NCBI GenBank assembly: GCA_016186955.1
Contig: JACPKP010000011.1
Span: forward strand, 12,477-76,476
Direction of reading: 5' to 3'
Source of the DNA: Candidatus Daviesbacteria bacterium
GTDB taxonomy: Bacteria > Patescibacteriota > Microgenomatia > Daviesbacterales > UBA10151
Length of the DNA: 64,000 nucleotides
The translations under genes and the position numbers were made by a program. This document shows, one piece after another, positions 30,032 through 63,317 of the stretch (position 1 is the first letter of the stretch; the number at the start of each line of letters is the position of its first letter). The notes below the pieces were generated by a model that worked only from the letters and a program-made list of their open reading frames with translations, searched no databases and had not been told where the DNA came from.

Positions 30032-30040
30032 GTAGTAACC

Positions 30041-31400: not shown

Positions 31401-31555
31401 CCTTCTAAATTCTTCCAAAATCTCCCTCGGCGGTACCTGGTTGCCTGCCATCCATAGCTTTAGCAAGGGATGGACTATGTTGGAACCTTTTATCAAATCT
31501 CAACACAGCAAAAGGCCTTTGTTAACACATTAATTGTACGATAAAATTAGTTTTA

Positions 31556-32065: not shown

Positions 32066-32223
32066 AAAAGTTTTGGTTGGAACCTGTTAAAAACTGCCTT
32101 TTTAGGCACAAATTGATGATATTGATAAAAAATGCCCTAAAAAATGATTGGGTTGGTTGGAACTTACCCTTAAGGGAAATATAGCCTGGTAAAACTGACT
32201 AGCTAAGGTTATTGTTAATCTTT

Positions 32224-32460: not shown

Positions 32461-32464
32461 ATCA

Positions 32465-32820
32465 TTTATCTTAGCGGACTTTGTCCGTGCGCCGACGCTG
32501 AAGCTCTGGCGCAAGCGTCCGAAGCTCGCCATACAATCTCGCCGTCGCTAAAGCTATGGCGAGCGAATTCCTCTTTCGCGTACTTGGCGGATTTTATCCG
32601 CCGAAGTCCGCTTCAGCGGACGAAGGCGGAGGGGGTGAGATTCGAACTCACGGAGAGCTTGCGCCCTCAGAAGTTTTCAAAACTTCCGCACTAGGCCACT
32701 ATGCGACCCCTCCATCAAACTTTAATCTTTGAGGTCGCATAGGTACATTAGATAGTAAAGCACCGCTTGACGGTGCGGCTATCGCAAGAAACGAAGTTTC
32801 TTATGCGACCTCTCCATTCC
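32465..32820. repeat. Segmental duplication unit 1 (tRNA-Ser flanked by conserved 60-nt and 100-nt blocks)
   Basis: gcggactttgtccgtgcgccgacgctgaagctctggcgcaa (32465-32524) and atcaaactttaatctttgaggtcgcatag...cttatgcgacctctcca (32714-32815) recur at 32916-32975 and 33098-33199. Confidence 0.7.
32627..32713 (-). tRNA. tRNA-Ser (anticodon TGA)
   Basis: Reverse-complement GGAGGGGTCGCATAGTGGCCTAGTGCGGAAGTTTTGAAAACTTCT...; anticodon loop TTTGAAA; long variable arm. Confidence 0.75.
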
Positions 32821-32915
32821 GGATGTCAGATGTCAAAAATCGGATTTCGGATCAGTACAATTTTATCCGATTTATCCGAGATCTGATTTCCGATATCCGA
32901 AATCCGAACTTGGCG

Positions 32916-33199
<284 letters not shown>

Positions 33200-42973: not shown

Positions 42974-43095
42974 TCTCAAAACTCAAATATCAAATGATAA
43001 ATCTACATCTTAAATTTTAAATCTTCGCAACCTTAAGATTTTAGATTTTAATTGTAGTTTTGACATTTGAGATCTCAGATTTGAGATTTAATATT

Positions 43096-43440
43096 ATGAA
43101 CAAGCTTGCTTTGACAATTGACAACAAAACTATTTCTCCCCCAACTAGCTTTAAACCTGAATTTACTGACCTTGGCTCTGTTATTACAGCTTCATTAAAC
43201 TTAATTTTTTATATTTCAGGGATGCTTTTGTTTATCTGGTTGGCCTGGGGGATCATGCAATATATCTTTGCAGGAGGGAATAAAGAAGCCCTGGCCAAAG
43301 CCCGGACCAGGATTATCTATGCCTTGGTCGGATTCATTATAGTAGTCCTGTCTTTCACCCTCAGTGAATACATCAAAGCTGTACTTAGCCCAACCAGTTC
43401 AATCCCGCAACCGCCAATCACACCAATCACACCACCATGA
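43096..43440 (+). CDS. VirB2/TrbC-like pilin paralog 1
   Basis: Start set at MNKLAL. TM - FAGGNKEALAKARTRI - TM. Confidence 0.45.
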   Translation: MNKLALTIDNKTISPPTSFKPEFTDLGSVITASLNLIFYISGMLLFIWLAWGIMQYIFAGGNKEALAKARTRIIYALVGFIIVVLSFTLSEYIKAVLSPTSSIPQPPITPITPP

Positions 43441-43805
43441 TTAAAAAGTTAGCCTTCATTAGTATAACGGTTATAACGTTTATAAATATTATATTTACAC
43501 ACCCTGTCTATGCTGAAGACCTTAAAAAACAATATGGTTTTGGCTGGATCACCAGTTTGGGGGATGTTATCAGCCGTAACATTGTCCCGGCCGGTTTTGA
43601 GATTGCCGGGATTGCACTCCTTTTTTATATAGTCATAGCAGCCATAAAGTACATGACCTCAGGCGGTGATAAAGAAGCTGTAGCTTCTGCCCGTGGCATG
43701 ATTACCCATTCTGTGATAGGATTTTTAATGCTGATATTTTTATTTTTATTTTTGCAGTACATCCTGCCCGCAATCGGGCTTAAAAATTTTATTATTGTAA
43801 GATAA
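43437..43805 (+). CDS. VirB2/TrbC-like pilin paralog 2
   Basis: Signal peptide (…THPVYA), then TM - MTSGGDKEAVASARGMIT - TM. Confidence 0.5.
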   Translation: MIKKLAFISITVITFINIIFTHPVYAEDLKKQYGFGWITSLGDVISRNIVPAGFEIAGIALLFYIVIAAIKYMTSGGDKEAVASARGMITHSVIGFLMLIFLFLFLQYILPAIGLKNFIIVR

Positions 43806-44125
43806 TGGCATACCTGGCAAAAAGTTTTCAAGATATTATCGGACAGATTACCCCTCCTGACCCTATCCAGGACATAGGCCGGGGAGGCCGGGGAATAAAT
43901 ACTGTCTTAAGCAATATCCTGACCATAATTTATATATTCGGGACAATCATTTTCCTATTTATGATTGTCATAAGTGCGGTTCAGTGGATTGTCTCAGGCG
44001 GTGATAAAGAAGTTGTCCAAAAAGCCCGCTCAAGGATAACTAATGCTATAATAGGTATAGTGCTTTTAGCGCTGGCAAGGTTTATTGTTTCGCTGATAGG
44101 CTCAATCACAGGGTTTAAAATCTAA
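43805..44125 (+). CDS. VirB2/TrbC-like pilin paralog 3
   Basis: TM - WIVSGGDKEVVQKARSRIT - TM. Confidence 0.5.
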   Translation: MAYLAKSFQDIIGQITPPDPIQDIGRGGRGINTVLSNILTIIYIFGTIIFLFMIVISAVQWIVSGGDKEVVQKARSRITNAIIGIVLLALARFIVSLIGSITGFKI

Positions 44126-44158
44126 ACAGTATATTGACAAACCTTAAATAACCTGCAT

Positions 44159-44587
44159 ATGATAATATTAATGAGATCAAAAGTTCTTAGTGTATTAGCT
44201 GTCGGTGCTGCTGTATTGCTAAATCCTATCTCTGTCTTTGCGCAGGATGATGTTAGAAATATTGGTTCTATAGCGCCATCTGCCAGCGGTCTTACGGGAA
44301 TTAATCCATCAACTACCTCTTTAGGTGATTTAATCAGAAATGCCCTTGTTATTATTTATATACTTGCAGCAGTAGCAGTTTTAGCTATGCTGGTTTTTGG
44401 TGCCTTCCAATGGATCACATCAGGAGGAGACAAGGAAGCTGTACAAAAAGCCAGAAGCAGGATAACTGCTGCTTTAGTCGGTATGGGTATTTTGGCTTTA
44501 GCATTATTTATCACTGTACTCATGGGACAAATATTGAATATCAATGTCTTAAATCTTCCAACCTTACCAACACTCGGTAATCCATAA
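44159..44587 (+). CDS. VirB2/TrbC-like pilin paralog 4
   Basis: Signal peptide (…VFAQ), then TM - WITSGGDKEAVQKARSRIT - TM. Confidence 0.5.
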   Translation: MIILMRSKVLSVLAVGAAVLLNPISVFAQDDVRNIGSIAPSASGLTGINPSTTSLGDLIRNALVIIYILAAVAVLAMLVFGAFQWITSGGDKEAVQKARSRITAALVGMGILALALFITVLMGQILNINVLNLPTLPTLGNP

Positions 44588-50369: not shown

Positions 50370-50792
50370 TCAATCCAATCCCAATCTTGTATATCCGTTT
50401 TTGGCAAATATCTCATCAAACCCAAAAATATCCTTTGTCTCAAAATGGTCGGCAAAAGCCATCACTATACAATCTGTGAAACTGGTAGAATTTACTTCCG
50501 TTTTAAACTTTTTAAAAGATGCCTTCCGGATTTGGTCATTTATCTCCTCCATAATAAACAAGTTCGAATCTAAAATCAGGTTACCTGTTGAAATGGCTAA
50601 ATTATGGCCAAATTTTTTCCCGATAACATTCATTGTTTCCGTAAAAATATCACCTGGGGTTATTATAGTGGTGTTGTATTCATCCAGGTGTTCCGCTGTT
50701 TTAACAGCAATTTTATGGTTATTATCTGTTGGAAAGAATAAAGATATTAAAGCACTTGAGTCAGCCACTACAAAAGCCTGCTTACTCCTCAT
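50370..50792 (-). CDS. vapC: PIN-domain toxin (VapC)
   Basis: AFVVADSSALISLFF N-terminal PIN signature; 140 aa. Confidence 0.65.
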   Translation of the reverse strand: MRSKQAFVVADSSALISLFFPTDNNHKIAVKTAEHLDEYNTTIITPGDIFTETMNVIGKKFGHNLAISTGNLILDSNLFIMEEINDQIRKASFKKFKTEVNSTSFTDCIVMAFADHFETKDIFGFDEIFAKNGYTRLGLD

Positions 50793-51030
50793 AAAGGTAT
50801 TTATCTATATTTGCAGACAGGTCTGGTGGACCCTTAATTTTTAATTTTTCCCCTAACTCTGCTAAAGCCAGCAACCCCTTTTTTGTGTTTGGTTTACGGG
50901 GGGATATAATCTTTAATCCTTTAGATAAAGCCTCTCTTATAACCTCCGCCTTTGGTTTATTGTTACTTTGCGCCAAAATCTGGATATCCCTATTGAGTTC
51001 TTGAGTGAGATAAACCTGTGTCCTGATCAT
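50782..51030 (-). CDS. vapB: RHH antitoxin (VapB/CopG-like)
   Basis: TQVYLTQELNRDIQILAQSNNKPKAEVIREAL is RHH-like; overlaps the vapC start. Confidence 0.55.
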   Translation of the reverse strand: MIRTQVYLTQELNRDIQILAQSNNKPKAEVIREALSKGLKIISPRKPNTKKGLLALAELGEKLKIKGPPDLSANIDKYLYEE

Positions 51031-51065: not shown

Positions 51066-52073
51066 TCAAAGATATGATGACTTTTTATAAGTTAAGGTGC
51101 CTTTACATTTATAGCAGATGGATGTGCAGCAGTTTTCTACCTGGCAACTTGAACACCAGTTTTTTTTACTCTCGCTTAAAGTGACTGGCGGAAAATAGTA
51201 ATCCATACCAAGCATGGGTTGCATAAACATACCCCCAAAGTCAAAAACCGAGCAATTTGTCCTGATCTCCATGGGAGCAAACATAAACTCCATAGGATTT
51301 GGGCCGAAAAAGGCGCCAAAAAGCAGCCCGGAGTGGTATTTTTTTAAGGATTCCCCGCTCATGCCAACCTTAATCGCTTCCAGATACCTTCCGGCATTGA
51401 CTGAAGATAATCTGTTTGTTTCTTCCTCTATGTAGTTAAAGTTTAACCCTGGCCTTTCTTTGGATAACCCCAAAATCAGGGTTTGCACCTCGGCGTCCTT
51501 GATCTTGCCATTTCTCCCTCCTACAGATGTAATAATCAGGTCAGGTTCAGATTCAGGATCAACAACTTTCTTTGAAGACAATAAGTTCATCAGGACTGCT
51601 GCATCATGGCTGTCTAGCGCACCAGACTGGAACTGCCTGAAACTTACATAACCCTCGTTTACTTTTTCAGCCAAATTTATCTGTGTATCCATATACCCGT
51701 CGCCTTTAGGGGAAACCCAAATAACAGATTCCCCAATCCCGGCGTCAAATATCCTTTGCCGGTAATTTATGGCTGACCGGTATTCAGCGCCCCTTCTGAA
51801 CTCTTTATCAATACCCTCCAAAATATCTTTACCGCTGTACCTGTCTGAAGAATGCACCAACCTTTTTTCACCAAAAACCTCCTCTATAAAATACGCATCG
51901 TTATATGGCTTTAGGGTTTTTGAGGCTTCCCAGGTCTGGGAACGGAAGTTGTCTTTAAAAACATCAAGGGCTATTTTTTCCCCTACCCCAACCCCGTACA
52001 CCCTAAGGGTCTGGTGGTAAAAATTAACGTCTTTGTTGACGTCAAAAGTGTGGCTTACCGGGGAAAATTCCAT
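51066..52073 (-). CDS. Hypothetical protein with C-terminal Cys cluster
   Basis: 335 aa; C-terminus CSSCQVENCCTSICYKCKG; no family recognised. Confidence 0.45.
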   Translation of the reverse strand: MEFSPVSHTFDVNKDVNFYHQTLRVYGVGVGEKIALDVFKDNFRSQTWEASKTLKPYNDAYFIEEVFGEKRLVHSSDRYSGKDILEGIDKEFRRGAEYRSAINYRQRIFDAGIGESVIWVSPKGDGYMDTQINLAEKVNEGYVSFRQFQSGALDSHDAAVLMNLLSSKKVVDPESEPDLIITSVGGRNGKIKDAEVQTLILGLSKERPGLNFNYIEEETNRLSSVNAGRYLEAIKVGMSGESLKKYHSGLLFGAFFGPNPMEFMFAPMEIRTNCSVFDFGGMFMQPMLGMDYYFPPVTLSESKKNWCSSCQVENCCTSICYKCKGTLTYKKSSYL

Positions 52074-52297: not shown

Positions 52298-53377
52298 ATG
52301 GAAGCACATCCTGTCCCGCAAAATATAACCAATTTTGAATTCCACCTGGTTGGGGATATGACCTTAAAACAATTCGGGTATCTGGCTGGAGGTTTGGGGT
52401 TTGCATATATGATCTTTTTCCTTTTTGCCACCTCATTCCCGTTTGTTGCCTGGCCAATTGTCATAATTTCAGTAATCATCGGAATATCGTTTGCTTTTTT
52501 ACCCATCCAGGAACGCCCTCTTGACCATTGGGTTAGCGCTTTTTTTAAAGCTATTTTTAGGCCGACAAAATTTAATTATAAATCTGACATCGTTATAAAA
52601 GAGGACCCTTTTTTTAAAAAAAGGTTAGAATTTTTTCTCTCACAATTATCTGCAACCCCTGTAATTGGGCTTTCATGGGGGGATACACCTACTATAACTC
52701 CGCCTCCCCAACCTAAACCTGTTATAAAACCCGCCGTACAAGAGGTTAAAAAGGAAGCTGTCTCTCCGGCTGAACCTGTCAAACTCCCTGCCCCTGCTGA
52801 CTCTAAACTTCCAACCCAGGAAGACCTGAAAGCAACAGTCGAGCTGGCTGATAAAGCCCAAATAATCCGTAAAAAAATTACAGAAACAGAAGAGCAGTTA
52901 AGCCGGGTAAAAGCAAGGGCGATAGCGCCCGGAGAAGATAAAGAACTATTTGCTAAAGATTTCCAGGTTATTTTAAACAACCTGCAAAAATTAAACAGTG
53001 AAGCCGGCGAAATATCAAAAAAACTGGCAGTGCTTTCCAAAACGCCTATCAAAACACCAGCCATTGCCACCCCGGCAAAAAGCATGCCAACAATCAGTTT
53101 AACTGCTGTCCCTAATATCTTAAACGGGATTGTGACAGACCTTCAGGGAAATTATATAGAGGGTGCAATCCTGGTAGCCCATGACAAACAAAATTTACCT
53201 GTCCGGGCTTTAAAAACCAATAAGCTTGGCCAATTTATTGCCGCCACCCCCCTGCCCAACGGCGACTATGTTGTCACCTGCGAAAAAGATAATTTAATTT
53301 TTGACGTTATAAAAATAGAATTTTCAGGACAGGTGCTGCAACCTGTGATAATTTCAGCTAAAAAAGGAGCGCTCTGA
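52298..53377 (+). CDS. PrgI/VirB3-like two-TM protein fused to coiled coil and carboxypeptidase-regulatory-like beta-sandwich
   Basis: N-terminal GDMTLKQFGYLAGG, two TM helices and IQERPLDHWVSAFFKAIFRPTKFNY resemble the PrgI-family GLTxRQ...G.P.E.W...lrf signature. C-terminal GIVTDLQGNYIEGAIL...LPNGDYVVTCEKDN is CarboxypepD_reg-like. Confidence 0.35.
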   Translation: MEAHPVPQNITNFEFHLVGDMTLKQFGYLAGGLGFAYMIFFLFATSFPFVAWPIVIISVIIGISFAFLPIQERPLDHWVSAFFKAIFRPTKFNYKSDIVIKEDPFFKKRLEFFLSQLSATPVIGLSWGDTPTITPPPQPKPVIKPAVQEVKKEAVSPAEPVKLPAPADSKLPTQEDLKATVELADKAQIIRKKITETEEQLSRVKARAIAPGEDKELFAKDFQVILNNLQKLNSEAGEISKKLAVLSKTPIKTPAIATPAKSMPTISLTAVPNILNGIVTDLQGNYIEGAILVAHDKQNLPVRALKTNKLGQFIAATPLPNGDYVVTCEKDNLIFDVIKIEFSGQVLQPVIISAKKGAL

Positions 53378-54183
53378 TGGATACCACACAAAATTACCTG
53401 CCAATCAAAGATATTTTAAATGATTTAATTATTTTAAAAGACGGTAGTGTTTCTTGTGTGATTAAAACTTCCGCAGTCAACTTCGGTCTGATTTCAGAAA
53501 ATGAGCAGCTGGCGATTATATCCTCCTTTGCAGGACTTTTAAATTCATTGTCTTTTTCTATACAGCTGGTGATACGTTCAAAAAGGCTTGATATATCAAG
53601 CTATCTGAAACTGCTTGATGAATCAAGGAATAAACAAAACAACCCGCTGCTGCGTGATATGATGGGGCGTTACCGTACTTTTATTGAAAGTGTGATCAGG
53701 GAAAATGAGGTTTTAGATAAACAGTTTTATGTGGTGATCTCTGTTTCATACCTGGAGTTGGGGGTTATCAATAATATAGAAAAGCATTTCTCTAAAGCTA
53801 TAACAATACTCCTGCCAAGAAGGGATCATGTAATAAGGCAGCTTGAAAGAATCGGCCTTAAGGCAACTCAACTCAACACAGAAGCTCTAACCAGGCTTTT
53901 TTTTGATATTTTCAACGGGGACGGGCAACAACAACCAGACCGGAAACTTCAGGTTGAACCACTAATCACACAACCACAAACATCAGTACCAAAGGCTGCT
54001 GTGTTACTAAAACCACAAGTACAACCGCAGGCACAAACCCAACCAAAAAATCCACCGCCACAGCCGCAAACCATCAAAACACAATTTTCCCCGCCTGTCA
54101 TAAATGACCAACCAAAACCTGTCACCAGGTCATCCATGCCTTTTGTTGTAGAAGAACTGCCTGATGAATACAGCAGTGTATAA
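53377..54183 (+). CDS. VirB4 N-terminal-domain-like protein (split virB4, part 1)
   Basis: DGSVSCVIKTSAVNFGLISENEQLAIISSFAGLLNSLSFSIQLVI resembles the N-terminal domain of VirB4/TrbE. Overlaps the upstream gene (TGATGG). Ends in a Pro/Gln-rich tail 50 nt before the ATPase ORF, which is in a different frame. Confidence 0.35.
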   Translation: MDTTQNYLPIKDILNDLIILKDGSVSCVIKTSAVNFGLISENEQLAIISSFAGLLNSLSFSIQLVIRSKRLDISSYLKLLDESRNKQNNPLLRDMMGRYRTFIESVIRENEVLDKQFYVVISVSYLELGVINNIEKHFSKAITILLPRRDHVIRQLERIGLKATQLNTEALTRLFFDIFNGDGQQQPDRKLQVEPLITQPQTSVPKAAVLLKPQVQPQAQTQPKNPPPQPQTIKTQFSPPVINDQPKPVTRSSMPFVVEELPDEYSSV

Positions 54184-54232
54184 TAATTTTAAGCTGTTGT
54201 TTTACAATTTACGTTTTTAGTTTTTCGTTATT

Positions 54233-56020
54233 ATGGACATATCTTTTGTCACACCACCTAAGCCAAAAACACCCAAACAGGATTGGCCGCCTGGGGGAAA
54301 AACAGGCGGCAAACTCTCTATTGCTGATGTGCTGGCGCCGGCAGAGGTAGAGGTTGATTTTTCTTTTCTCAGGATCAACAACTCACTTTACAGGTCTTTC
54401 TTTGTTTCAGCTTACCCCCGGTACGCTGAACCAAATTGGCTTGAGCCTTTGATTGATTTTGACCATTCACTGGATATTTCAATGTTTATCTATCCCTCAA
54501 CCTCAAAAACAGTCCTGGATGACTTAAAAAGAAAGATAGCTGAGATGGAAGCCACCATCCAAACGGATATCGAAAGAGGGAGGGCTATAAATCCATCAGT
54601 GCAGGTAGCGCTTGATGATGCCAGGGCATTGCAAGACCAACTCGTAAAAGGGTCTGAAAGGTTTTTTAGGCTGGGGCTTTATATAACAGTGCCTGTGCAA
54701 AAAAAGCCCGCAGCTGATGAAGATTTAAACAATATCTCTGAGCTGGTAGAATCTACACTGGGATCCATCTCTATAACCGCCAAAAAAACCACACTCCAGA
54801 TGGAAGATGCTTTTATCTCCACTATACCTTTGGGTATAGATAGGTTGAACCTAAACCATAATATGGATACCACCTCACTTGCCACCACATTCCCTTTTAC
54901 TACATCGGAACTGACTGCAAATGAAGGGATTATGTACGGAATTAATGAACACAACGGGTCTTTGGTGGTGTTTGACAGGTTTTCCCTGGAAAACTATAAC
55001 TCTGTAGTTTTTGCAAAAGCCGGCGCCGGTAAGTCTTATTTTGTCAAGTTGGAAATTTTAAGATCCCTTATGTTTAATACACAGGTGATTGTAATTGACC
55101 CTGAGCATGAATATATTAAGCTTAGTGAGGCTGTCGGGGGAGAGTATATAAATTTCACATCAGAATCACCTGTTAAAATAAACCCTTTTGACCTCTCTAA
55201 TGTTTTAGAAAGCGGTGAAAATGAACTGGGCAGAAAAATATTAACCTTAACCGGTTTTTTAAAGCTGGTTTTAGGGGAATTAACTTCTTCACAATCCGCT
55301 GTCTTAGATAGGGCGTTATCTAACACTTACCGTCTTAAAGGGATTACCGCTGACCCCCAAACACAAAAACTGGCGCCTCCTTTAATGGAAGATTTGTATA
55401 AAGTTTTAATCGGGATGGAGGACCCTAATGCTAAAGAACTGGCATTCAGGCTGGAAAGGTTTATTAAGGGGTCGTTGGCAGGAATATTTTCTGCACCCTC
55501 AAATATTAACCTTAATAACCAAATGGTGGTTTTTTCAGTCAGGGACCTGGCTGACCAGCTCCGCCCTTTAGCTATGTACTTAATACTTGATTATATCTGG
55601 ACAAAAATCAGGGCAAACCTGCAAAAAAGGCTACTGGTTGTTGATGAAGCCTGGTATATGATGAAAAACCCTGATAGCGCGCAGTTTTTAGTAGAGATGG
55701 CCAAAAGGGCCAGGAAATATTATCTCGGGGTCACCACTATTACCCAGGATGTTGAGGATTTCCTGGCAGAAGACAGGGGTAAAGAAATTATTTCTAATTC
55801 ATCAATACAAACCCTGTTAAAACAAAGTCCTTCTTCAATTGATAAAATAGGACAAGTTTTTAACCTGTCAGAAGGGGAAAAACACCTGCTTTTATCTGCA
55901 GGTGTAGGCCAAGGCCTTTTCTTTGCCGGCCCTTCGCATGTAGCCATCCAGATAGTGGCCTCACCTGAAGAACACCAGCTGATCACCTCCAACCCTGCTG
56001 AACTTATAGCTAAAAACTAA
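54233..56020 (+). CDS. virB4: VirB4/TrbE/PrgJ-family T4SS ATPase (ATPase domains)
   Basis: YRSFFVSAYPRY...WL...ISMFIYP region, Walker A VFAKAGAGKSYFVK, Walker B LLVVDEAWYMM, C motif VTTITQDVEDF. Confidence 0.75.
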   Translation: MDISFVTPPKPKTPKQDWPPGGKTGGKLSIADVLAPAEVEVDFSFLRINNSLYRSFFVSAYPRYAEPNWLEPLIDFDHSLDISMFIYPSTSKTVLDDLKRKIAEMEATIQTDIERGRAINPSVQVALDDARALQDQLVKGSERFFRLGLYITVPVQKKPAADEDLNNISELVESTLGSISITAKKTTLQMEDAFISTIPLGIDRLNLNHNMDTTSLATTFPFTTSELTANEGIMYGINEHNGSLVVFDRFSLENYNSVVFAKAGAGKSYFVKLEILRSLMFNTQVIVIDPEHEYIKLSEAVGGEYINFTSESPVKINPFDLSNVLESGENELGRKILTLTGFLKLVLGELTSSQSAVLDRALSNTYRLKGITADPQTQKLAPPLMEDLYKVLIGMEDPNAKELAFRLERFIKGSLAGIFSAPSNINLNNQMVVFSVRDLADQLRPLAMYLILDYIWTKIRANLQKRLLVVDEAWYMMKNPDSAQFLVEMAKRARKYYLGVTTITQDVEDFLAEDRGKEIISNSSIQTLLKQSPSSIDKIGQVFNLSEGEKHLLLSAGVGQGLFFAGPSHVAIQIVASPEEHQLITSNPAELIAKN

Positions 56021-56025
56021 CTAAA

Positions 56026-57969
56026 ATGGCTGTCCCAAATGAGCAAAACTTAAACCCCGAGCATATCAGCCTCTATAAGGAAGCCCGGAATTTTATATTT
56101 GATTACACCACCCATAACTACAGTTATCAAAAAAGTTTAATTGACCGCCTGATTAAACCCGGAGAAATTTATGTACTCTACCCTATTAAAACTATTGTCT
56201 ATTACCTGGTTAAATTATCCCCTCCGCCTAACCTGCTTTTTGGCGCTAAACCTCCTTTTTCCTATGAAAAGATCCATCCTTTTTTAAGGTATTTTGGGAG
56301 TAAAGATGTATACAACAGGTTAAATGATATTGCCGCCGGTAAATTTAAAGCCTTGCCGGATAAGGAAGAGGTGGAGATAGCAAGTTTTAATAAGCTTCCG
56401 GAGGACCAGAAAGATAAAAAAATAAACCGGGAGATTTCCAAAAAGACAGGAGGTAAAATTTTTGGCTTTGTATCAATTCCTACATTAAAACCACCGCAAC
56501 AATACCCCAAGGTAAATATAAAACCGTTAGCCGTACCCTCTTTTATAAAAAACCTGGGGGTCTGGTCACTTATAAAAGTAAGTAATTTAATAAACAGGCA
56601 CCCTAAAATATCAGTCCCTTTGTCTGTTGGTATGATAGTGGGTTTTATACAATATGTTGTGACAGGCAACCCGGCTGTGGGGTGGATTTCCGGGATACTA
56701 ACTTCTGCCGGGGTTCATATAGCTTCACAATATCTGTCTGCGCCAAGACAGCCCCAGCAGATCGGTGATGAGGATAAACAATACAATAGTGGTGGTTGGA
56801 CTGGTGGTGGGGGTGTGGGTGGGGGCAGTTTCCAGCCGCCATGGCGGTCAAAGACTTCAAGGGCTTTAGGAAGGGGTTTGGGTAAAGCAGGAGCCAGAGC
56901 TGCAGGAGGACTGGCCAAAGCAGCTGTACCGCTTTTGGCAAATCCAATCACCTGGGTGGTAATAGGGATAATATTTTTTATCCTGCTTTTCTTCTTTTTG
57001 ATATTTAATAAAAATACCTCACTGTTTAACCCTGTTGAAGAAGATGCTGTCCCCACAGCTACATCAAGCGCCCAGTTAAAAATCAGTAAAACAGCCCCCG
57101 GAGCTGTCCCAAACGGTTCCCCAATCCCCTATGAAATTACTGTTACATATATAGGTACTGGAACTGCGGATATCACTGTCACGGATAAATTACCCGATAA
57201 CACAGATTTTACCAGTAGTAATCCTGCAGCAACCCCTGATGCCAACAGAATTCTGACATGGAACTTTCCTAAAATCCAGCCAAACCAGCCTCAAAAAGTA
57301 AGTTTTGTGATCCAACCTAATAAAAATGATATTTATGTCCAAAATACCGATTATGGTGCCAAAATAACAGGTGTTACCGGGGGAGGAGGTGGCGAGATAG
57401 CTGCCTGCACCTTCTTCAGGGAAGGAGATACTACTGTAACCGGCGGAGTATCAGGATTAAAATTTAATATACCTGAGTGGCCTGCTTTGATAAATGAAGT
57501 TACTTTAAAAGTCGGTGTCCCTGCTTCTTTCATCGCTGGTTTTCTCAGGGTAGAGTGCCCTGATTGTTTCGCAACTTCAGATCCGAGTTATATCATAAAC
57601 GACTACGATGGGCATTCTTCAGGTGTAGCTTATGGTGCTATGCAATTTACTCCCGGTACTTTTGAAGAGGTTTTTAAAAACCACAAAGACGAACTGAGGG
57701 ATAAATTCGGGAAAACATCATTTACTTTAAATATTGATCCGGGAGACCGAAATAATCCTAATAGTTCGGTGTTTAGAATGTATAGTGTTAAGGATTCTGT
57801 GGTCGCTGCCTCATTTAAAGCCAGAGATGACAGCGGTGGGGTATTTGATGAAGCTGGGGTCAGAAAAGCTGTGAAAGCCTATTATGGCAGCTGTATTTAC
57901 GATCAGGGTGGACAGGAGTGGAATTACTGCAGCGATGTCTGGAATAGTGTTTCCAGCTGCCATCCTTAA
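56026..57969 (+). CDS. Membrane-anchored lytic transglycosylase (SLT domain) with DUF11-like repeat domain, VirB1/PrgK-like
   Basis: TM helices, Gly-rich linker, DUF11-like TAPGAVPNGSPIPYEITVTYIGTGTADITVTDKLPDNTDFT, and SLT motif SGVAYGAMQFTPGTFEE. Confidence 0.5.
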   Translation: MAVPNEQNLNPEHISLYKEARNFIFDYTTHNYSYQKSLIDRLIKPGEIYVLYPIKTIVYYLVKLSPPPNLLFGAKPPFSYEKIHPFLRYFGSKDVYNRLNDIAAGKFKALPDKEEVEIASFNKLPEDQKDKKINREISKKTGGKIFGFVSIPTLKPPQQYPKVNIKPLAVPSFIKNLGVWSLIKVSNLINRHPKISVPLSVGMIVGFIQYVVTGNPAVGWISGILTSAGVHIASQYLSAPRQPQQIGDEDKQYNSGGWTGGGGVGGGSFQPPWRSKTSRALGRGLGKAGARAAGGLAKAAVPLLANPITWVVIGIIFFILLFFFLIFNKNTSLFNPVEEDAVPTATSSAQLKISKTAPGAVPNGSPIPYEITVTYIGTGTADITVTDKLPDNTDFTSSNPAATPDANRILTWNFPKIQPNQPQKVSFVIQPNKNDIYVQNTDYGAKITGVTGGGGGEIAACTFFREGDTTVTGGVSGLKFNIPEWPALINEVTLKVGVPASFIAGFLRVECPDCFATSDPSYIINDYDGHSSGVAYGAMQFTPGTFEEVFKNHKDELRDKFGKTSFTLNIDPGDRNNPNSSVFRMYSVKDSVVAASFKARDDSGGVFDEAGVRKAVKAYYGSCIYDQGGQEWNYCSDVWNSVSSCHP

Positions 57970-57986
57970 TCTGATACAATTTAAAA

Positions 57987-58685
57987 ATGAAAAAATATTC
58001 AATTTACATTTTATCTGTTCTTATATCTCTTACTTTGTTATATGGTAAAAATGCCTTAGTTTTTGCCCAAACTGTGGTCAAAGGCCTACCTGTCACTACT
58101 AAAGTGGGCAACCCAACTGAAGGAGCACCTGGAGGAGGTATATTACCTGGACCTACAGGTTTTGTTTACTATTGCCAGGGTAATACTGCCTGGGCGAGTA
58201 CTTGTAGTTTAGGTGTTGCCGGGTGTGGACCAACCTCAATGGCTATGGTACTGAGTAGTTTTGGGGTGGTAAAAACCCCACCAGAAGTTGACCGGGAGTG
58301 GGGGTTTAGGGTATGCGGAGACGTTGGAAGTAGTATGGAAGATGCACTGGGAAGTAGTTGGCTGGCAAATTTAGGTTTTGATAAGGGCCCTAATATCGGA
58401 CAAGGAAGCTTGAATGAAAACCTTGCTAAAATATTTTTAGAACAAGGAAGTTTAATTATTGGATCATCACATGCTTTCCCGTGCGCAAATTGTAAACCTG
58501 GAACTACAACAGTTGACCATATTTTTGTTGTAGATGGGATAGATGTAGCCGCAGGAACTGTTAGTATCAGGGATCCCAACAACTGTAGTTACGCCGACGG
58601 AAACGATGAAAACCCCGCAAAAGTAATCCACAAAATCAACGAATTTACCTGGGCATATGCATATCCAATAAAAAAAGTGAGATAA
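57987..58685 (+). CDS. Secreted papain-like cysteine peptidase (Peptidase_C39-like/CHAP-like), cell-wall hydrolase
   Basis: Signal peptide. CQGNTAWASTCSLGVAGCGPTSMAMVLSSFG holds the catalytic Cys as in C39-like domains; a downstream His lies in DHIFVVDGID. Confidence 0.45.
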   Translation: MKKYSIYILSVLISLTLLYGKNALVFAQTVVKGLPVTTKVGNPTEGAPGGGILPGPTGFVYYCQGNTAWASTCSLGVAGCGPTSMAMVLSSFGVVKTPPEVDREWGFRVCGDVGSSMEDALGSSWLANLGFDKGPNIGQGSLNENLAKIFLEQGSLIIGSSHAFPCANCKPGTTTVDHIFVVDGIDVAAGTVSIRDPNNCSYADGNDENPAKVIHKINEFTWAYAYPIKKVR

Positions 58686-59104: not shown

Positions 59105-59590
59105 ATGAGTCTGAAACAAAAAATTATCGGGATTATTGTGGTTTTAGGGATAGCGTTGATTGCTGTTTTTCAAACTGGGTTGGGTGGAAATTTATCAGGA
59201 AGGATGGATTCCCTCCGCCAGCTGGCGGATCGCGGGAATGACAGTGTGAAGGGTGTGAATAATACCAAAGATCAGGAAATTAAAATAATCTCAACCAACC
59301 CGTCACCACTAGAGGAAACTACAATCCTTCCCATGCAAGCTATTGAAATAACCTTTAACCAGACTCTTGAAAGCGCCCCGGAGTTTAAAACCAGTATGGA
59401 GCCTAAGGCTGATTATAAAACCGAACTATCCGAAGACAGGAAAACCGCAAAAATCATTCCAATTAAACCATACACCCTAGGAGGAGGTTATACACTTCAT
59501 ATTTTAGGCAATACTAAATTTGACGGCAAAAAAGAACTAAACAGGGAAGAAATTTTCCATTTCAAAACCATAAATTACACTGGGGTATAG
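59105..59590 (+). CDS. N-terminally anchored Ig-like (Big_5/SbsA-like) domain protein
   Basis: ISTNPSPLEETTILPMQAIEITFNQTL matches the bacterial Ig-like Big_5 start pattern. Confidence 0.35.
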   Translation: MSLKQKIIGIIVVLGIALIAVFQTGLGGNLSGRMDSLRQLADRGNDSVKGVNNTKDQEIKIISTNPSPLEETTILPMQAIEITFNQTLESAPEFKTSMEPKADYKTELSEDRKTAKIIPIKPYTLGGGYTLHILGNTKFDGKKELNREEIFHFKTINYTGV

Positions 59591-59601: not shown

Positions 59602-60735
59602 TTAGCTTAATCTGATTGGCATTATCACATATTCAAGCCCCTCTTCACCGATAGGTTTAACTAAAGCCGGAGACAGGTTGCCTGAAAATTCAATAGAAAC
59701 CTGTAAACAGGCAAGTACTGAAAGTATGTCAATTAAATACTTACTATTAAAAGCAATGGAAATTTCCGAACCTTCAGTATCAGCCTCAAGTTGGGTTTCC
59801 TGGCCACCCACCTCTTTTGCCTCAGAAGATAAAACAATCTTTTTTTCAAAAGCGCTAATTTTTATTATATTAGCTTCCGACCTGGAAAAAACAGCGGCTA
59901 ATTTACATGCTTTTAGTAACTCAACCCTGTCTATAATTGTCCTGTTTTCAAACTTTTGAGGAACAATCTTTTCCCAAACAGGAAACTGACCCTCTATTAG
60001 GCGTGATGAAAGCTGGGTATCACCTATTTTAAAAACCATCTGGTTTTGGTTTTCCGATGTAGAAATCTCTATATTTTCTTCCCCAGATGAATCTTCACTA
60101 ATCAGCCTGGCAACCTCTTCAAATGTCCTTCTGGGAATAAGTACCCTTAAATTATTTTTTTCCTTCAAGTCAACTTTTGTAGTATCGGGATTAATTTTAG
60201 TGTGTTTATGTGCAAGCCTGAAACCATCTGTTGCCACAAATTCTAAACTATCTTTTTTAATCTCAGTTAAAATTCCTGTTAAGACAGGTCTTCCATCATC
60301 TGATGCAGCAGAAAAAGTGATTAAAGGAAGTGTATTTAAAAGGACTGTGCTGTTTACTAAAATAGGCTTATCGGAAGATATAGGTATAACAGGGAATTCA
60401 CTGGCCGGTATGCAATTTAAGGTAGCGTTAAATTTTTGAGTTGATATCTTAAGTTGCTCTGACTTTGATTCAATCTCTAGGGTTTCCCCTGTAAGTGATG
60501 CAATAATATCCAGGAATGTTTTAGCCGGCACTGTCAATTCTCCTTCTTCATAAACTTCCGTATTTACAGTTTTTATAATACCTACCTCTAAATTTGTGGC
60601 TGATAATTTAAGCCTATTATTTTCAGTCCTAATTAAGATATTAGCCAAAACAGGTAAGGTTGACCTGACCCCGACAGACCTTGATACAGCCTGTAATACC
60701 GGCAGTAAATCCTGCTGTAAAATTTTTATTTTCAT
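59602..60735 (-). CDS. dnaN: DNA polymerase III beta sliding clamp DnaN
   Basis: MKIKILQQDLLPVLQAVSRSVGVRSTLPVLANILI; 377 aa; lies downstream of dnaA. Confidence 0.85.
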   Translation of the reverse strand: MKIKILQQDLLPVLQAVSRSVGVRSTLPVLANILIRTENNRLKLSATNLEVGIIKTVNTEVYEEGELTVPAKTFLDIIASLTGETLEIESKSEQLKISTQKFNATLNCIPASEFPVIPISSDKPILVNSTVLLNTLPLITFSAASDDGRPVLTGILTEIKKDSLEFVATDGFRLAHKHTKINPDTTKVDLKEKNNLRVLIPRRTFEEVARLISEDSSGEENIEISTSENQNQMVFKIGDTQLSSRLIEGQFPVWEKIVPQKFENRTIIDRVELLKACKLAAVFSRSEANIIKISAFEKKIVLSSEAKEVGGQETQLEADTEGSEISIAFNSKYLIDILSVLACLQVSIEFSGNLSPALVKPIGEEGLEYVIMPIRLS

Positions 60736-60746
60736 CTTTGTGTTTT

Positions 60747-61205
60747 TTAATCCCTCCTTTTTATTGAAACAAACTTTTGTATTTCATCTTCTGTTACTTT
60801 AATCAACCTGAAATTTACCAACCCTGCTGTAATCAGATTTTTAATATGTTTTTCTTCCTCGGTTAAAATATGGTTTTGGCCGGATTTAACTTCTATAAAA
60901 TCAATCCGCTCATTGTTTTTAATACCTATAAAATCAATAGGCCACCCTAAGGGGATTATTCTATCATAATCATAACGGAGCTCGGCATAAGTCAAAAGTT
61001 CCGCCATCCTACCTTTTTGGGGATTAATTGAACCTTGTATTGTCTGGAGTATTTTAATAGGTAAATGTTCTATTTGTTTGTAAATATCAATAAAATCCTG
61101 GGGGATTTCAGAAGTTTTCCTTGAATGAAGCCTGCCAATAAGATAGGTTATTACCAAAGTAAGAATAATGATAATAAAAAAAATTAAATCTATTTTTATA
61201 GTCAT
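60747..61205 (-). CDS. Membrane-anchored PD-(D/E)xK nuclease-fold protein (Hjc-like)
   Basis: N-terminal TM helix; GRMAELLTYAEL...GWPIDFIGI...IDFIEVKSGQ gives a D...E-V-K motif with Hjc/VRR-NUC-like spacing. Confidence 0.4.
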   Translation of the reverse strand: MTIKIDLIFFIIIILTLVITYLIGRLHSRKTSEIPQDFIDIYKQIEHLPIKILQTIQGSINPQKGRMAELLTYAELRYDYDRIIPLGWPIDFIGIKNNERIDFIEVKSGQNHILTEEEKHIKNLITAGLVNFRLIKVTEDEIQKFVSIKRRD

Positions 61206-61390
61206 ATTAATTTATCCACATTTTATTAGGTTAACTTTAAATATTTATTATAGTAACCGTAGTTATAGATATTGTCTATATGTTAAAAACAATCTTATTT
61301 GAGCACTAAATTCGTAATATTTTCGTGTTGAAAACTCTTTTAAAAATGTGGATAAGTCAGTGGATAACTGTGTATTTATATGTTGATAAC
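61206..61390. promoter_or_regulatory. oriC-like region with DnaA boxes (dnaA-dnaN intergenic)
   Basis: Perfect TTATCCACA at 61212-61220 and perfect TGTGGATAA at 61347-61355. One-mismatch boxes at 61359-61367 (AGTGGATAA) and 61381-61389 (TGTTGATAA). AT-rich. Confidence 0.65.
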
Positions 61391-62758
61391 TCATGATATT
61401 AAACCCTGCCTTACTTCTAATACCAGCCTTTGTAATTCCCTATCCCTTTGGGATAATTGCCTGATTTTTTCTATTCCATGCAAAATTGTGGTATGGTCCC
61501 TTCCTCCCAGTATCTGGCCTATCCTTTCCATTGGCAGATTGCATTCTTCATACATTAAAAACATCGCTATTTGTCTGGGTATTACCAGCTCTTTTTGCCT
61601 CCTCGGGCCTGTCAAATCAGCCATCCTGATATTAAAATACTGGTTTATTTCCGCTAAAACTTTTTTATGGTCTAAAAACTGGGTGTTGGTATGGGGTTTT
61701 CCCATTAATTTCTTAATATAATCCAACTCAGGTTTATTACCTGTTGTTTTTATCAGCTGAATTATCTGGATCAGTTTTCCTTCCAACTCCCTGGTATTTG
61801 ATTCAACAGTTTCAGCAATTATTTTAATATATTCTTCATCTAAAAATTCCCCCCGCTCCTTAATTTTTGCCTTAAGTATTGCCACCCTGGTATCAAAATC
61901 AGGGAGTTGTATATCTACCATCAACCCGCCTTGAAAACGGGATTGCAGCCTTGGCTCAAGTTTTACAATCTCATTTGGAGGTCTATCAGAGGTGAAGACC
62001 AGCTGGCTATTTTTATTTTGCAATTCGTTAAACAGGTGGAAAAATTCCTGCTGTGTGGAATCCTTACCGGAGATAAATTGGATATCATCTATCAGTAAAA
62101 TATCACAGGAGCGGTATTTTTGACGGAAATCACCGGTTTTTTTTGTCTGTATTGAATCAACAAAATCGTTCATAAATTTTTCTGAAGGGGCGTAAACAAC
62201 TTTATAATATGGTTTTTTAGAAAGAAGGGCATTGCCAATACCCAACATCAGATGAGTTTTACCTACGCCGGATTGGCCGTATATAAAAAGCGGATTATAA
62301 GATACACCGGGATTTTGGACAACTGCCTGGGCTGCTGCAAATGCCAGATTATTGGTAAACCCAACCATAAAATTTTCCAAAGTAAATTTAGGGTTTAGGG
62401 GGTTTTGGATATTGGCAGTTTTAATGTTTCCCAGTGGGAATATACCCTCCTCTTTAATAGGTATTTTTTTAGTAAATTTCGAGGAATTTATTAAATATTC
62501 TACAGACAGATGTTTACCGGTAACCTGTTTTGTTGTACTGCTGATTAAATTATCATAACGGCGTATTAACTCCCCTTTTATAAATGCAGACGGGACAGAA
62601 ATTATAAGTCTTTCATCATTTATTTGATGAAGCGATGTTTGGGAGAACCATGTACTGAAGTTTTGGATGTTTATCTGACCCTTTATTATTTTAAGTATCT
62701 TACCCCACTCCTTATTATTATCCATAATGGAAAAGATACTAGTGGATAAGTTATACAT
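61391..62758 (-). CDS. dnaA: Chromosomal replication initiator DnaA
   Basis: Walker A GQSGVGKTHLM, LLIDDIQF, sensor motifs, and C-terminal DNA-binding helix VIPRQIAMFLMYE. Confidence 0.9.
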   Translation of the reverse strand: MYNLSTSIFSIMDNNKEWGKILKIIKGQINIQNFSTWFSQTSLHQINDERLIISVPSAFIKGELIRRYDNLISSTTKQVTGKHLSVEYLINSSKFTKKIPIKEEGIFPLGNIKTANIQNPLNPKFTLENFMVGFTNNLAFAAAQAVVQNPGVSYNPLFIYGQSGVGKTHLMLGIGNALLSKKPYYKVVYAPSEKFMNDFVDSIQTKKTGDFRQKYRSCDILLIDDIQFISGKDSTQQEFFHLFNELQNKNSQLVFTSDRPPNEIVKLEPRLQSRFQGGLMVDIQLPDFDTRVAILKAKIKERGEFLDEEYIKIIAETVESNTRELEGKLIQIIQLIKTTGNKPELDYIKKLMGKPHTNTQFLDHKKVLAEINQYFNIRMADLTGPRRQKELVIPRQIAMFLMYEECNLPMERIGQILGGRDHTTILHGIEKIRQLSQRDRELQRLVLEVRQGLIS

Positions 62759-62845
62759 AAGTAAAGATAGTGAAACTGTTTAAAAATAGATCAGCTTTTA
62801 AATTTAAGTTTTGCAATTTAGATGAAGCGCTGGTATACTAAACAA

Positions 62846-62986
62846 ATGTCCACTAAAAGAACCTATCAGCCCAAAAAAATAAAAAGAGCCAGGAAACATG
62901 GTTTTAGGGCTAGGATGGAAACAAGTGGTGGTAAAAAAGTCCTCAAAAGAAGAAGAATAGAAGGAAGAGTAAGACTGGCTGTTTAA
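62846..62986 (+). CDS. rpmH: 50S ribosomal protein L34
   Basis: Manual translation [46 protein letters not shown] (46 aa). Not in the ORF track because it is under 60 aa. Confidence 0.8.
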
Positions 62987-62987
62987 A

Positions 62988-63317
62988 ATGCTTCCAAAAT
63001 CCCAAAGACTGAATCTTAAGGAAAAATTTAAATGGGTAACTTCAGGTAAAAGAATAGAAACGCACTCATTTAAACTTTATTTAAAATTAGGAGATAATAG
63101 TAAACCCTTGATAGGAATAGCGGTCCCAAAACATATTATAAAAAAAGCCCACGATAGGAATAAAACAAAAAGGGTAATTTCAGATACGATAAACCAATTT
63201 TATACCAGCTTGCCAAATAACCTAAATTTAGTTATCATTCCCAAAGGGGATATTTTTAAAGAAAATAAGGAACAACTAAAAGATGAGCTCAGCATTACTC
63301 AAAACATTAATCATTAA
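62988..63317 (+). CDS. rnpA: RNase P protein component RnpA
   Basis: LPKSQRLNLKEKFKWV...FKLYL...IGIAVPKHIIKKAHDRNKTKR; classic position after rpmH. Confidence 0.75.
   Translation: MLPKSQRLNLKEKFKWVTSGKRIETHSFKLYLKLGDNSKPLIGIAVPKHIIKKAHDRNKTKRVISDTINQFYTSLPNNLNLVIIPKGDIFKENKEQLKDELSITQNINH

What the first reader, a model, noticed from the sequence alone, without database searches (positions are those of the whole stretch)
53377..56020. VirB4 apparently split into two ORFs (N-domain 268 aa plus ATPase 595 aa) separated by 50 nt and a frame change
ORF 53377..54183 resembles the VirB4/TrbE N-terminal domain and ends in a low-complexity Pro/Gln tail. ORF 54233..56020 starts with the YRSFFVSAYPRY region that normally follows that domain in a single polypeptide. 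Their combined length (863 aa) is VirB4-sized. This is either a natural two-subunit arrangement, a programmed frameshift, or a recent inactivating lesion.
Basis: inference. Interest (0 to 1): 0.5.

Follow-up and report, generated by a model that had tools for sequence, protein, structure and literature searches.

The report
Natural two-gene VirB4: TrsD-like plus ATPase
The apparent "broken" VirB4 secretion ATPase is not damaged: it is the normal, conserved two-gene form (a TrsD-like N-terminal module plus a short VirB4 ATPase) already described for type IV secretion systems of Patescibacteria and some Gram-positive plasmids.

Summary
ORF1 (53377-54183, 268 aa) and ORF2 (54233-56020, 595 aa) lie 49 nt apart in different frames. 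Together they are exactly collinear with single-chain VirB4 proteins: ORF1 residues 4-186 match residues 11-182 of a 754-aa fused relative, and ORF2 residues 25-591 match residues 179-747.

It is neither a lesion nor a frameshift site. All 80 orthologous loci from other species are split, with different junction geometries. ORF1 ends TAA-TAA-TTT-TAA, and the ORF2 frame is closed until 12 nt before its ATG. ORF1 homologues are stand-alone proteins, and only 1 of the best 150 cluster representatives is fused.

ORF1 is a TrsD-like protein. Published work (PMC12102498) already reports TrsD, a remote homologue of the VirB4 N-terminus, as the commonest T4SS component of Patescibacteria, usually next to virB4. 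The locus shows the usual PrgI-TrsD-VirB4 order beside dnaA/dnaN.

Two smaller points seem unreported. The Pro/Gln tail is a variable disordered linker ending in a near-invariant peptide, PFVVEEL; another lineage has linkers up to about 500 aa ending in LPPIxEI. Fused and split forms both occur among close relatives (Amesbacteria).

Verdict: real, ordinary, already known.

The parts
52298..53377 (+). PrgI (VirB3-like) membrane protein with a Pro-rich linker and a C-terminal CarboxypepD_reg-like beta-sandwich domain. Its TGA stop overlaps the ORF1 ATG by one base (TGATG).
   Evidence: Pfam PrgI, E 8.6e-9, residues 5-91; CarboxypepD_reg, E 4.6e-5. The gene lies directly upstream of the ORF1 homologue in 79 of 80 loci.
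53364..53369 (+). Shine-Dalgarno-like AAGGAG, 7 nt upstream of the ORF1 ATG.
   Evidence: Read directly from the sequence.
53377..53925 (+). ORF1 residues 1-183: folded TrsD-like domain, equivalent to the first ~180 residues of single-chain VirB4.
53926..54138 (+). ORF1 residues 184-254: Pro/Gln-rich disordered linker (15 Q and 15 P in 70 residues), hypervariable in length and sequence among homologues.
   Evidence: pLDDT below 50. Alignment A1 shows linkers of roughly 45-140 aa with no conserved columns. Composition.
54139..54171 (+). ORF1 residues 255-265: conserved C-terminal peptide PFVVEELPDEY, followed by SSV and the stop codon.
   Evidence: P, F, E, E and L are invariant in A1. The motif is present in 62 of 80 orthologous loci: P 60, F 61, V 62, E 62, E 61 and L 62 of 62. 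It is present in 111 of the 120 closest homologues. It occurs only once in the six-frame translation of the window.
54181..54232 (+). ORF1 stop region (TAA TAA TTT TAA) and the 49-nt AT-rich spacer. The ORF2 frame is closed by TAG at 54218-54220. There is no Shine-Dalgarno sequence, plus-strand promoter, terminator or stable RNA structure.
54233..54310 (+). ORF2 residues 1-26: non-VirB4 'head' (MDISFVTPPKPKTPK...). It is a degenerate copy of the basic/hydrophobic N-terminal motif (M-K-L-P-x-F-K-K) seen in orthologues.
   Evidence: ORF2 heads in the orthologous loci. This region has no counterpart in fused VirB4.
54311..56020 (+). ORF2 residues 27-595: the rest of VirB4, comprising the second half of the N-terminal region (including YRSFFVSAYPRY, 54389-54424) and the RecA-like ATPase domain. 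Walker A GAGKS is at 55022-55036 and Walker B LLVVDEAW at 55631-55654.
   Evidence: NCBIfam conju_CD1110, E 5e-112, positions 184-734/752. Pfam P-loop_TraG, AAA_10 and DUF87. PDB 4ag5 VirB4 C-terminal domain, E 2e-49. BLASTP to fused protein residues 179-747, E 7e-68. Motif coordinates.
56026..58685 (+). Two downstream genes that probably belong to the same T4SS operon: a 647-aa membrane/DUF11 protein and a 232-aa C39-like peptidase, likely cell-wall remodelling (VirB1-type) functions.
   Evidence: Pfam DUF11, E 3e-6, and Peptidase_C39_2, E 7e-7. The functional role is inferred.

Best explanation
This is an intact type IV secretion ATPase encoded as two polypeptides.

ORF1 is a TrsD-like protein. 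It carries the first ~180 residues of the VirB4 N-terminal region, then a disordered Pro/Gln linker, then a conserved C-terminal peptide (PFVVEEL...). ORF2 is a 'short' VirB4 holding the rest of the N-terminal region and the Walker A/B ATPase domain.

The two genes sit in a PrgI(VirB3-like)-TrsD-VirB4 operon next to dnaN/dnaA in a Candidatus Daviesbacteria (Patescibacteria) chromosome, and are translated separately.

Inferred mechanism: ORF1 binds ORF2 non-covalently to rebuild the membrane-proximal VirB4 N-terminal collar. In the R388 structure, that collar contacts VirB3 and VirB8 and links VirB4 protomers. The ATPase then powers assembly of, or transport through, the Patescibacteria T4SS.

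The linker plus C-terminal peptide is inferred to act as a flexible tether that docks on a partner. The partner is not identified; candidates are the ATPase subunit, the cytoplasmic domain of PrgI, or another T4SS component.

Shown here: homology, collinearity, conservation of the split, and conservation of the peptide. Inferred: physical association and the tether role.
For: Collinearity:
- NCBIfam places ORF1 on positions 1-171 and ORF2 on positions 184-734 of the 752-position CD1110 VirB4 model.
- BLASTP to the fused 754-aa Carboxydocella protein gives ORF1 4-186 <-> 11-182 and ORF2 25-591 <-> 179-747.

Conservation of the split:
- 80 of 80 loci from other species are split, with varied overlaps, gaps and frames.
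- The 120 closest ORF1 homologues are 248-325 aa.
- 1999 cluster representatives match ORF1, and only 1 of the best 150 is fused.

The two states are interchangeable. A clade of fused 738-897-aa proteins (Amesbacteria; 43 of the best 120 clusters) is 38-50% identical to ORF1 and 54-64% identical to ORF2. ATPase-only relatives are up to 88% identical to the fused ATPase part.

ORF2 is an intact ATPase: Walker A and B are present, and it matches the solved VirB4 C-terminal domain 4ag5 at E 2e-49.

Precedent:
- Bacillus plasmids carry an annotated TrsD followed by TrsE (BLASTP E 2e-13).
- PMC12102498 describes TrsD as a remote homologue of the VirB4 N-terminus, found 2,272 times in Patescibacteria and 1,664 times next to virB4. 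It is essential in Ca. Southlakia epibionticum, and the T4SS is often near the origin.

Context in the window: PrgI upstream, five T4SS_pilin genes, and dnaN/dnaA downstream.
Against: - No direct evidence here that ORF1 and ORF2 bind each other; a multimer prediction could not be run.
- ORF1 scores far below the curated NCBIfam cut-offs for TrsD (32.8 against 200 bits) and for the VirB4 families.
- ORF2 has no recognisable Shine-Dalgarno sequence and is not overlapped by ORF1, unlike many orthologues, so its translation efficiency is unknown.
- The partner of the PFVVEEL peptide could not be identified. The PrgI C-terminal domain and the ORF2 head motif occur in lineages both with and without the peptide.
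Confidence: 0.9

Rival explanations
1. Recent inactivating lesion: a formerly single virB4 gene was broken by a nonsense or frameshift mutation, and the locus is a decaying pseudogene.
For: Fused VirB4 genes do exist in related Microgenomates, so a single-gene ancestor is conceivable. ORF2 lacks a Shine-Dalgarno sequence.
Against: All 80 orthologous loci in other species are split. ORF1 carries 82 extra residues, including a near-invariant C-terminal peptide under clear selection, and ORF2 carries its own conserved head. Both ORFs are full length with intact motifs.
Confidence: 0.02
2. Programmed +1 ribosomal frameshift or stop-codon readthrough produces a single VirB4 polypeptide from the two ORFs.
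For: ORF2 is in the +1 frame relative to ORF1 and only 49 nt downstream.
Against: ORF1 is followed by three stops in four codons (TAA TAA TTT TAA). The ORF2 frame has stops at 54149 and 54218, so any shift before the ORF1 stop terminates at 54218. The junction folds no better than shuffled sequence (z -0.61). Orthologues use all three relative frames, including same-frame and overlapping arrangements.
Confidence: 0.01
3. ORF1 is derived from the VirB4 N-terminus but no longer works as a structural half of VirB4. It has become an independent adaptor or regulator. For example, its long disordered arm and C-terminal peptide might recruit substrates, a coupling protein or another machine to the T4SS, while the short VirB4 functions alone.
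For: The tail varies from about 50 to 500 aa and ends in lineage-specific conserved peptides (PFVVEEL; LPP[IL][PA]EI). This pattern is typical of tethered interaction motifs. [quoted passage not shown] Short VirB4 proteins such as that of T. pseudethanolicus have been studied on their own (own knowledge).
Against: Fused relatives keep the same domain directly joined to the ATPase by junctions as short as 2-3 residues. The PrgI-TrsD-VirB4 order is almost universal (79 of 80 loci). Many orthologues have overlapping stop and start codons, suggesting coupled translation and matched stoichiometry.
Confidence: 0.12
4. Assembly or sequencing artefact: an indel error in a metagenome-assembled genome created a false split.
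For: The source is a metagenome-assembled genome; the identical protein is MBI2596409.1 from Candidatus Daviesbacteria, found on one contig.
Against: The two ORFs are separated by a real 49-nt non-coding spacer with several stops, not by a single indel. Independent assemblies of 80 other species show the same split.
Confidence: 0.01

Closest known systems
TrsD homologues next to VirB4 in Patescibacteria T4SS loci (Quinonero-Coronel et al. 2025, PMC12102498)
   Same: The arrangement is the same: a stand-alone protein remotely homologous to the VirB4 N-terminus, encoded beside virB4 with PrgI/VirB3 and VirB2-like pilins, often close to the replication origin. All of these features are seen in this window.
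   Different: Nothing essential differs. In the text I could search, the paper assigns TrsD no function and does not mention the disordered linker, the conserved C-terminal peptides, or the fused Amesbacteria forms.
TrsD + TrsE of pGO1/pSK41-type Gram-positive conjugative plasmids (and the NCBIfam TrsD/TraD family NF041427)
   Same: A separate TrsD gene lies immediately upstream of a ~630-aa VirB4-like TrsE. ORF1 aligns with Bacillus cereus plasmid TrsD (26% identity, E 2e-13) over its whole folded domain.
   Different: The Bacillus TrsD carries a ~130-residue N-terminal extension and has no Pro/Gln linker or PFVVEEL peptide. ORF1 is far below the NF041427 cut-off. The plasmid systems are conjugative with a relaxase, whereas this locus is chromosomal and beside the origin.
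Single-chain VirB4 of the CD1110 family (e.g. the Carboxydocella pCCELLA01 754-aa protein) and fused VirB4 of Candidatus Amesbacteria
   Same: The domains and their order are the same. ORF1 plus ORF2 cover the fused protein end to end, with the break in a short loop (NGxG).
   Different: These are one polypeptide. The junction is 2-88 residues and lacks the PFVVEEL peptide.
TrwK/VirB4 of plasmid R388 (solved T4SS structure, 7o41/7o42)
   Different: TrwK is an 823-aa single chain from a diderm system, with 11% identity to ORF1.

Membership tests
VirB4/TraC/TrbE-family T4SS ATPase (ORF2) | Profile match above a curated family threshold | tested here: met
   NCBIfam conju_CD1110 scores 375.4 bits against a cut-off of 325. 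Pfam P-loop_TraG scores 99.5 against 25.8.
VirB4/TraC/TrbE-family T4SS ATPase (ORF2) | Walker A and Walker B nucleotide-binding motifs intact | tested here: met
   GAGKS at residues 264-268 and LLVVDEAW at residues 467-474.
VirB4/TraC/TrbE-family T4SS ATPase (ORF2) | Similarity to a solved VirB4 ATPase domain | tested here: met
   4ag5 (T. pseudethanolicus VirB4 C-terminal domain), E 2e-49; TrwK, E 3e-3.
VirB4/TraC/TrbE-family T4SS ATPase (ORF2) | Encoded among other T4SS genes | tested here: met
   PrgI upstream, five T4SS_pilin genes at 41174-44587, and a C39-like hydrolase downstream.
VirB4/TraC/TrbE-family T4SS ATPase (ORF2) | Complete N-terminal region in the same polypeptide | tested here: not met
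   Model positions 1-183 are missing from ORF2 and are supplied by ORF1.
VirB4/TraC/TrbE-family T4SS ATPase (ORF2) | ATP hydrolysis and hexamer formation | not testable with these tools
   Requires biochemistry.
TrsD-like proteins (stand-alone VirB4 N-terminal homologue) | Homology to the N-terminal part of VirB4 and to annotated TrsD | tested here: met
TrsD-like proteins (stand-alone VirB4 N-terminal homologue) | Separate gene immediately upstream of a short virB4 | tested here: met
   Seen in the window and in 80 of 80 orthologous loci.
TrsD-like proteins (stand-alone VirB4 N-terminal homologue) | Score above the curated NCBIfam NF041427 (TrsD/TraD subfamily) cut-off | tested here: not met
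   32.8 bits against a cut-off of 200. ORF1 is therefore a distant relative, not a member of the Firmicutes subfamily as NCBI defines it.
TrsD-like proteins (stand-alone VirB4 N-terminal homologue) | Hit by the CONJScan/MacSyFinder TrsD profile used in PMC12102498 | not testable with these tools
   The profile is not available here. All homologues carry the precomputed Pfam family PF26593, which also marks the N-terminus of fused VirB4. That family is absent from the local Pfam copy, and I could not confirm its name.
Programmed-frameshift genes (e.g. prfB, dnaX type) | The downstream frame is open across the end of the upstream ORF, so that one slip joins them | tested here: not met
   The ORF2 frame is closed at 54149 and 54218.
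Programmed-frameshift genes (e.g. prfB, dnaX type) | Conserved frame relationship and stimulatory RNA element in orthologues | tested here: not met
   Orthologues use all three relative frames. The junction has no significant structure.

The most novel reading that the evidence does not exclude
The most novel reading the evidence allows concerns how the split is tolerated. In these bacteria the TrsD-like subunit may stay attached to the T4SS through a 'leash'. The leash would be an intrinsically disordered linker of 50-500 residues ending in a lineage-specific hydrophobic/acidic docking peptide: PFVVEEL in Daviesbacteria, and LPP[IL][PA]EI in another lineage.

This peptide might pair with the basic LPxFKK-type head of the short VirB4, or with another T4SS partner. 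If so, the leash would replace the covalent link lost at the break and could also serve as a recruitment arm.

The repeated switching between fused and split genes in Microgenomates would then be a natural experiment in protein fission.
Probability: 0.25. Interest if true: 0.45.

Novelty: already known. Interest (0 to 1): 0.2.

Why it matters
The result matters mainly for annotation. This gene pair should be called a TrsD-like subunit plus VirB4, not a pseudogene or frameshifted virB4. Pipelines that flag 'truncated VirB4' in Patescibacteria would be wrong.

The T4SS of Patescibacteria is reported to be essential for their epibiotic life, and the TrsD homologue is among the essential genes (PMC12102498, PMC10633639). 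Any clue to TrsD function therefore has some value.

Two clues emerged here: the conserved C-terminal peptide on a variable disordered linker, and the coexistence of fused and split forms. Both give concrete, testable handles on how the two halves cooperate. They are refinements of a known system, not a new one.

Tried and rejected
- **Solved-structure sequence search.** A profile of the ORF1 family found nothing. Fold comparison was needed instead.
- **Local Pfam.** ORF1 got only sub-threshold hits (TraC_F_IV, E 0.06). PF26593, precomputed for all homologues, is not in the local copy, and a literature search for its accession found nothing.
- **Partner of the PFVVEEL peptide, by co-occurrence.**
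  - The PrgI C-terminal beta-sandwich domain is present in loci both with and without the peptide.
  - The ORF2 head motif is likewise present in both.
  - The only neighbour restricted to peptide-bearing loci is the small Ig-like protein at 59105-59590 (41 of 62 loci against 0 of 18). This may simply reflect phylogeny.
  - The peptide occurs nowhere else in the window or the loci.
  - In the ORF1-alone model the peptide stays at pLDDT about 50, so there is no sign that it folds back on its own domain.
- **Regulatory elements in the 49-nt spacer.** No plus-strand promoter-like or terminator-like site was found, and the RNA fold is no better than shuffled sequence.
- **Guglielmini et al. 2014 (PMC4027160).** It is cited by the 2025 paper for the TrsD-VirB4 homology, but its main text does not contain the word TrsD. 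I therefore rely on the 2025 paper's statement.
- **Co-fold of ORF1 and ORF2.** Not attempted.
- **Lineage of the class-B (LPPIxEI) proteins.** The cluster look-up gave no names.
Full report
**1. The observation**

The two ORFs exist as described: 53377-54183 (268 aa) and 54233-56020 (595 aa). They are separated by 49 nt, and ORF2 is in the +1 frame relative to ORF1. ORF1 starts at a TGATG overlap with the upstream gene and has an AAGGAG box 7 nt upstream of its ATG. ORF2 has no such box.

**2. Are they two halves of VirB4?**

Yes. The evidence comes from profile, pairwise and structural comparisons.

- **Profiles.** NCBIfam places ORF1 only on the N-terminal positions of VirB4 models:
  - CD1110 family, positions 1-171 of 752, E 8e-6.
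  - Mycoplasma ICE VirB4, positions 103-280 of 894, E 6e-10.
  - TIGR00929, positions 8-151 of 792.
  - The stand-alone TrsD/TraD family, E 6e-8.
  - ORF2 falls on the remainder: CD1110 positions 184-734, E 5e-112, above the curated cut-off.
- **Pairwise.** A plasmid search found a fused 754-aa protein in Carboxydocella. ORF1 residues 4-186 align to its residues 11-182 (E 2e-21). ORF2 residues 25-591 align to its residues 179-747 (E 7e-68). The break therefore falls in one short loop (NGxG).
- **Extra segments.** ORF1 residues 187-268 and ORF2 residues 1-24 have no counterpart in the fused protein.
- **ATPase integrity.** ORF2 keeps Walker A (GAGKS) and Walker B (LLVVDEAW). It matches the solved VirB4 ATPase domain 4ag5 at E 2e-49.

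**3. Lesion, frameshift or natural split?**

The evidence points to a natural split.

*Readthrough and frameshifting are impossible.*
- ORF1 is followed by TAA TAA TTT TAA.
- The ORF2 frame carries stops at 54101, 54149 and 54218, the last only 12 nt before the ATG. No single slip or readthrough can join the two ORFs.
- The junction RNA folds no better than shuffled sequence (z -0.61), and no plus-strand promoter or terminator pattern lies in the spacer.

*ORF1 belongs to a large family of stand-alone proteins.*
- 1570 homologues were found. The 120 closest are 248-325 aa long at 46-67% identity, and several are named Candidatus Daviesbacteria.
- The identical protein is MBI2596409.1.

*The split is conserved across species.*
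- 80 loci from different species were analysed (Daviesbacteria, Gottesmanbacteria and other Microgenomates).
- The N-terminal module and the ATPase are separate ORFs in all 80.
- Junctions range from overlaps of 4-20 nt to gaps of about 130 nt, in all three relative frames. This is the signature of an old, maintained two-gene arrangement.
- A search of 1.84 billion cluster representatives found 1999 relatives of the ORF1 domain. Among the best 150 the domain always lies at the N-terminus, and only one protein is fused to the ATPase.

**4. Relation to what is known**

Direct tblastn of the ORF1 domain hits CDSs annotated TrsD on Bacillus plasmids. In B. cereus pH308197_73, TrsD is followed by TrsE, a 627-aa VirB4-like ATPase. 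ORF1 aligns to that TrsD at E 2e-13.

The 2025 survey of Patescibacteria T4SS (PMC12102498) makes several relevant statements:
- It was the most abundant T4SS component in Patescibacteria: 2,272 homologues, 1,664 of them associated with virB4.
- It is essential in Ca. Southlakia epibionticum.
- It has no assigned function.
- These T4SS loci often lie near the replication origin.

The window fits this picture.
- A PrgI/VirB3-like gene lies upstream.
- Five VirB2-like pilin genes lie at 41174-44587.
- Putative wall hydrolases lie downstream.
- dnaN, dnaA and rnpA lie at 59602-63317.
- The PrgI-TrsD-VirB4 order is present in 79 of 80 loci, and dnaN is nearby in 47.

The finding is therefore a correct recognition of an arrangement that is already described.

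**5. How it most likely works**

From the R388 structure as summarised in PMC12857230, VirB4 N-terminal domains link protomers and contact VirB3 and VirB8 at the membrane.

I infer that ORF1 binds the N-terminal part of ORF2 (residues ~27-250) to complete this collar and connect the ATPase to PrgI. Three observations support this:
- Fused relatives join the same two parts by junctions as short as 2-3 residues.
- The gene order is almost invariant.
- Many orthologues have overlapping stop and start codons, which suggests coupled translation.

Physical association was not tested here.

**6. Details that seem not to be described**

*(a) The tail of ORF1 is organised.*
- It consists of a hypervariable Pro/Gln linker followed by a near-invariant C-terminal peptide, PFVVEEL-x-D-(D/E)-Y.
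- The peptide is present in 62 of 80 loci with almost no substitutions, and lies 1-9 residues from the C-terminus.
- It is present in 111 of the 120 closest homologues.

*(b) A second lineage shows the same design on a larger scale.*
- The same N-terminal domain is followed by a Q/P/T/S-rich linker of up to ~500 residues and a different terminal peptide, LPP[IL][PA]EI. This was seen in 38 of the 150 representatives, with a median length of 523 aa.
- One such locus has the same PrgI-TrsD-VirB4-dnaA-dnaN synteny.

*(c) Short VirB4 proteins carry a head motif.*
- In all these lineages they begin with a basic/hydrophobic motif such as MKLPxFKK or NLPFLKKK. The window's MDISFVTPPKPK is a degenerate copy.
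- The motif persists inside some long fused junctions as GLPAFLQKK.

*(d) Fused genes are not rare in Candidatus Amesbacteria.*
- 43 of the best 120 clusters found with a fused query are fused (738-897 aa), and one of them was seen on 17 contigs.
- ATPase-only relatives up to 88% identical coexist with them. The fused or split state has therefore changed more than once, or recently.
- The fused forms lack the PFVVEEL-type peptide.

Together these points suggest that the linker plus peptide is a tether used when the chain is broken. I could not identify its binding partner, so this remains inference.

**7. Verdict**

The frameshift and lesion alternatives are excluded. The arrangement is already known (TrsD plus VirB4). 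Only the tail and head motifs and the fused/split lability add anything, and these are refinements. Interest is low.

Noticed in passing
L063:6638-10579, L064:6615-10286, also L068 and L069 (Gottesmanbacteria loci); proteins P0302, P0303, P0306, P0312 and others: In some relatives the short VirB4 is ~1160-1310 aa because an intein with a LAGLIDADG homing endonuclease is inserted at or near the P-loop. Pfam finds Intein_splicing and LAGLIDADG_3, and 9 of the 120 clusters are of this kind.
   Followed up: partly
window 41174-44587 (+): Five genes carry the T4SS_pilin (VirB2-like) domain: four small ones of 106-142 aa, and a 599-aa protein with the domain at its C-terminus. This matches the pilin cluster reported for Patescibacteria T4SS.
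   Followed up: partly
window 50370-51030 (-): A PIN-domain toxin (140 aa) and a ribbon-helix-helix antitoxin (82 aa), with overlapping genes, sit between the pilin block and the PrgI-TrsD-VirB4 block on the opposite strand.
   Followed up: no
window 59602-63317: dnaN (-), a Holliday-junction-resolvase-like endonuclease (-), dnaA (-) and rnpA (+) show that the T4SS operon abuts the chromosomal replication origin region. dnaN is also near the T4SS in 47 of 80 related loci.
   Followed up: partly
window 52298-53377 (+) and homologues in 75 of 80 loci: The PrgI/VirB3-like protein is extended by a Pro-rich linker and a conserved C-terminal CarboxypepD_reg-like beta-sandwich domain. In some Microgenomates the whole protein reaches ~800 aa. 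The role of this domain is unknown.
   Followed up: partly
window 59105-59590 (+): A small protein (161 aa) with a weak Ig-like (Big_5) match is found near the T4SS in 41 of 62 loci whose TrsD-like protein carries PFVVEEL, and in 0 of 18 loci without it. This may be only phylogenetic signal.
   Followed up: no
window 51066-52073 (-): A 335-aa ORF with no Pfam match and a Cys-rich C-terminus (CSSCQVENCCTSICYKCKG) lies between the toxin-antitoxin pair and the T4SS operon. It is found in only 2 of the related loci.
   Followed up: no
window 21568-33097: Seven tRNA genes are clustered here, including four different tRNA-Ser and two tRNA-Arg.
   Followed up: no
Loci L001-L003, L005, L006 and many others: Many related genome records are titled 'uncultured Gammaproteobacteria bacterium'. 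Their T4SS locus and sequence similarity place them with Daviesbacteria/Microgenomates, so the record titles look like mislabels.
   Followed up: no
L081:2320-3357 (Bacillus cereus pH308197_73 TrsD): The Bacillus TrsD is 345 aa. The VirB4-N-like domain occupies residues ~131-306, so it has an N-terminal extension of ~130 residues, unlike the Patescibacteria proteins, which are extended at the C-terminus.
   Followed up: no
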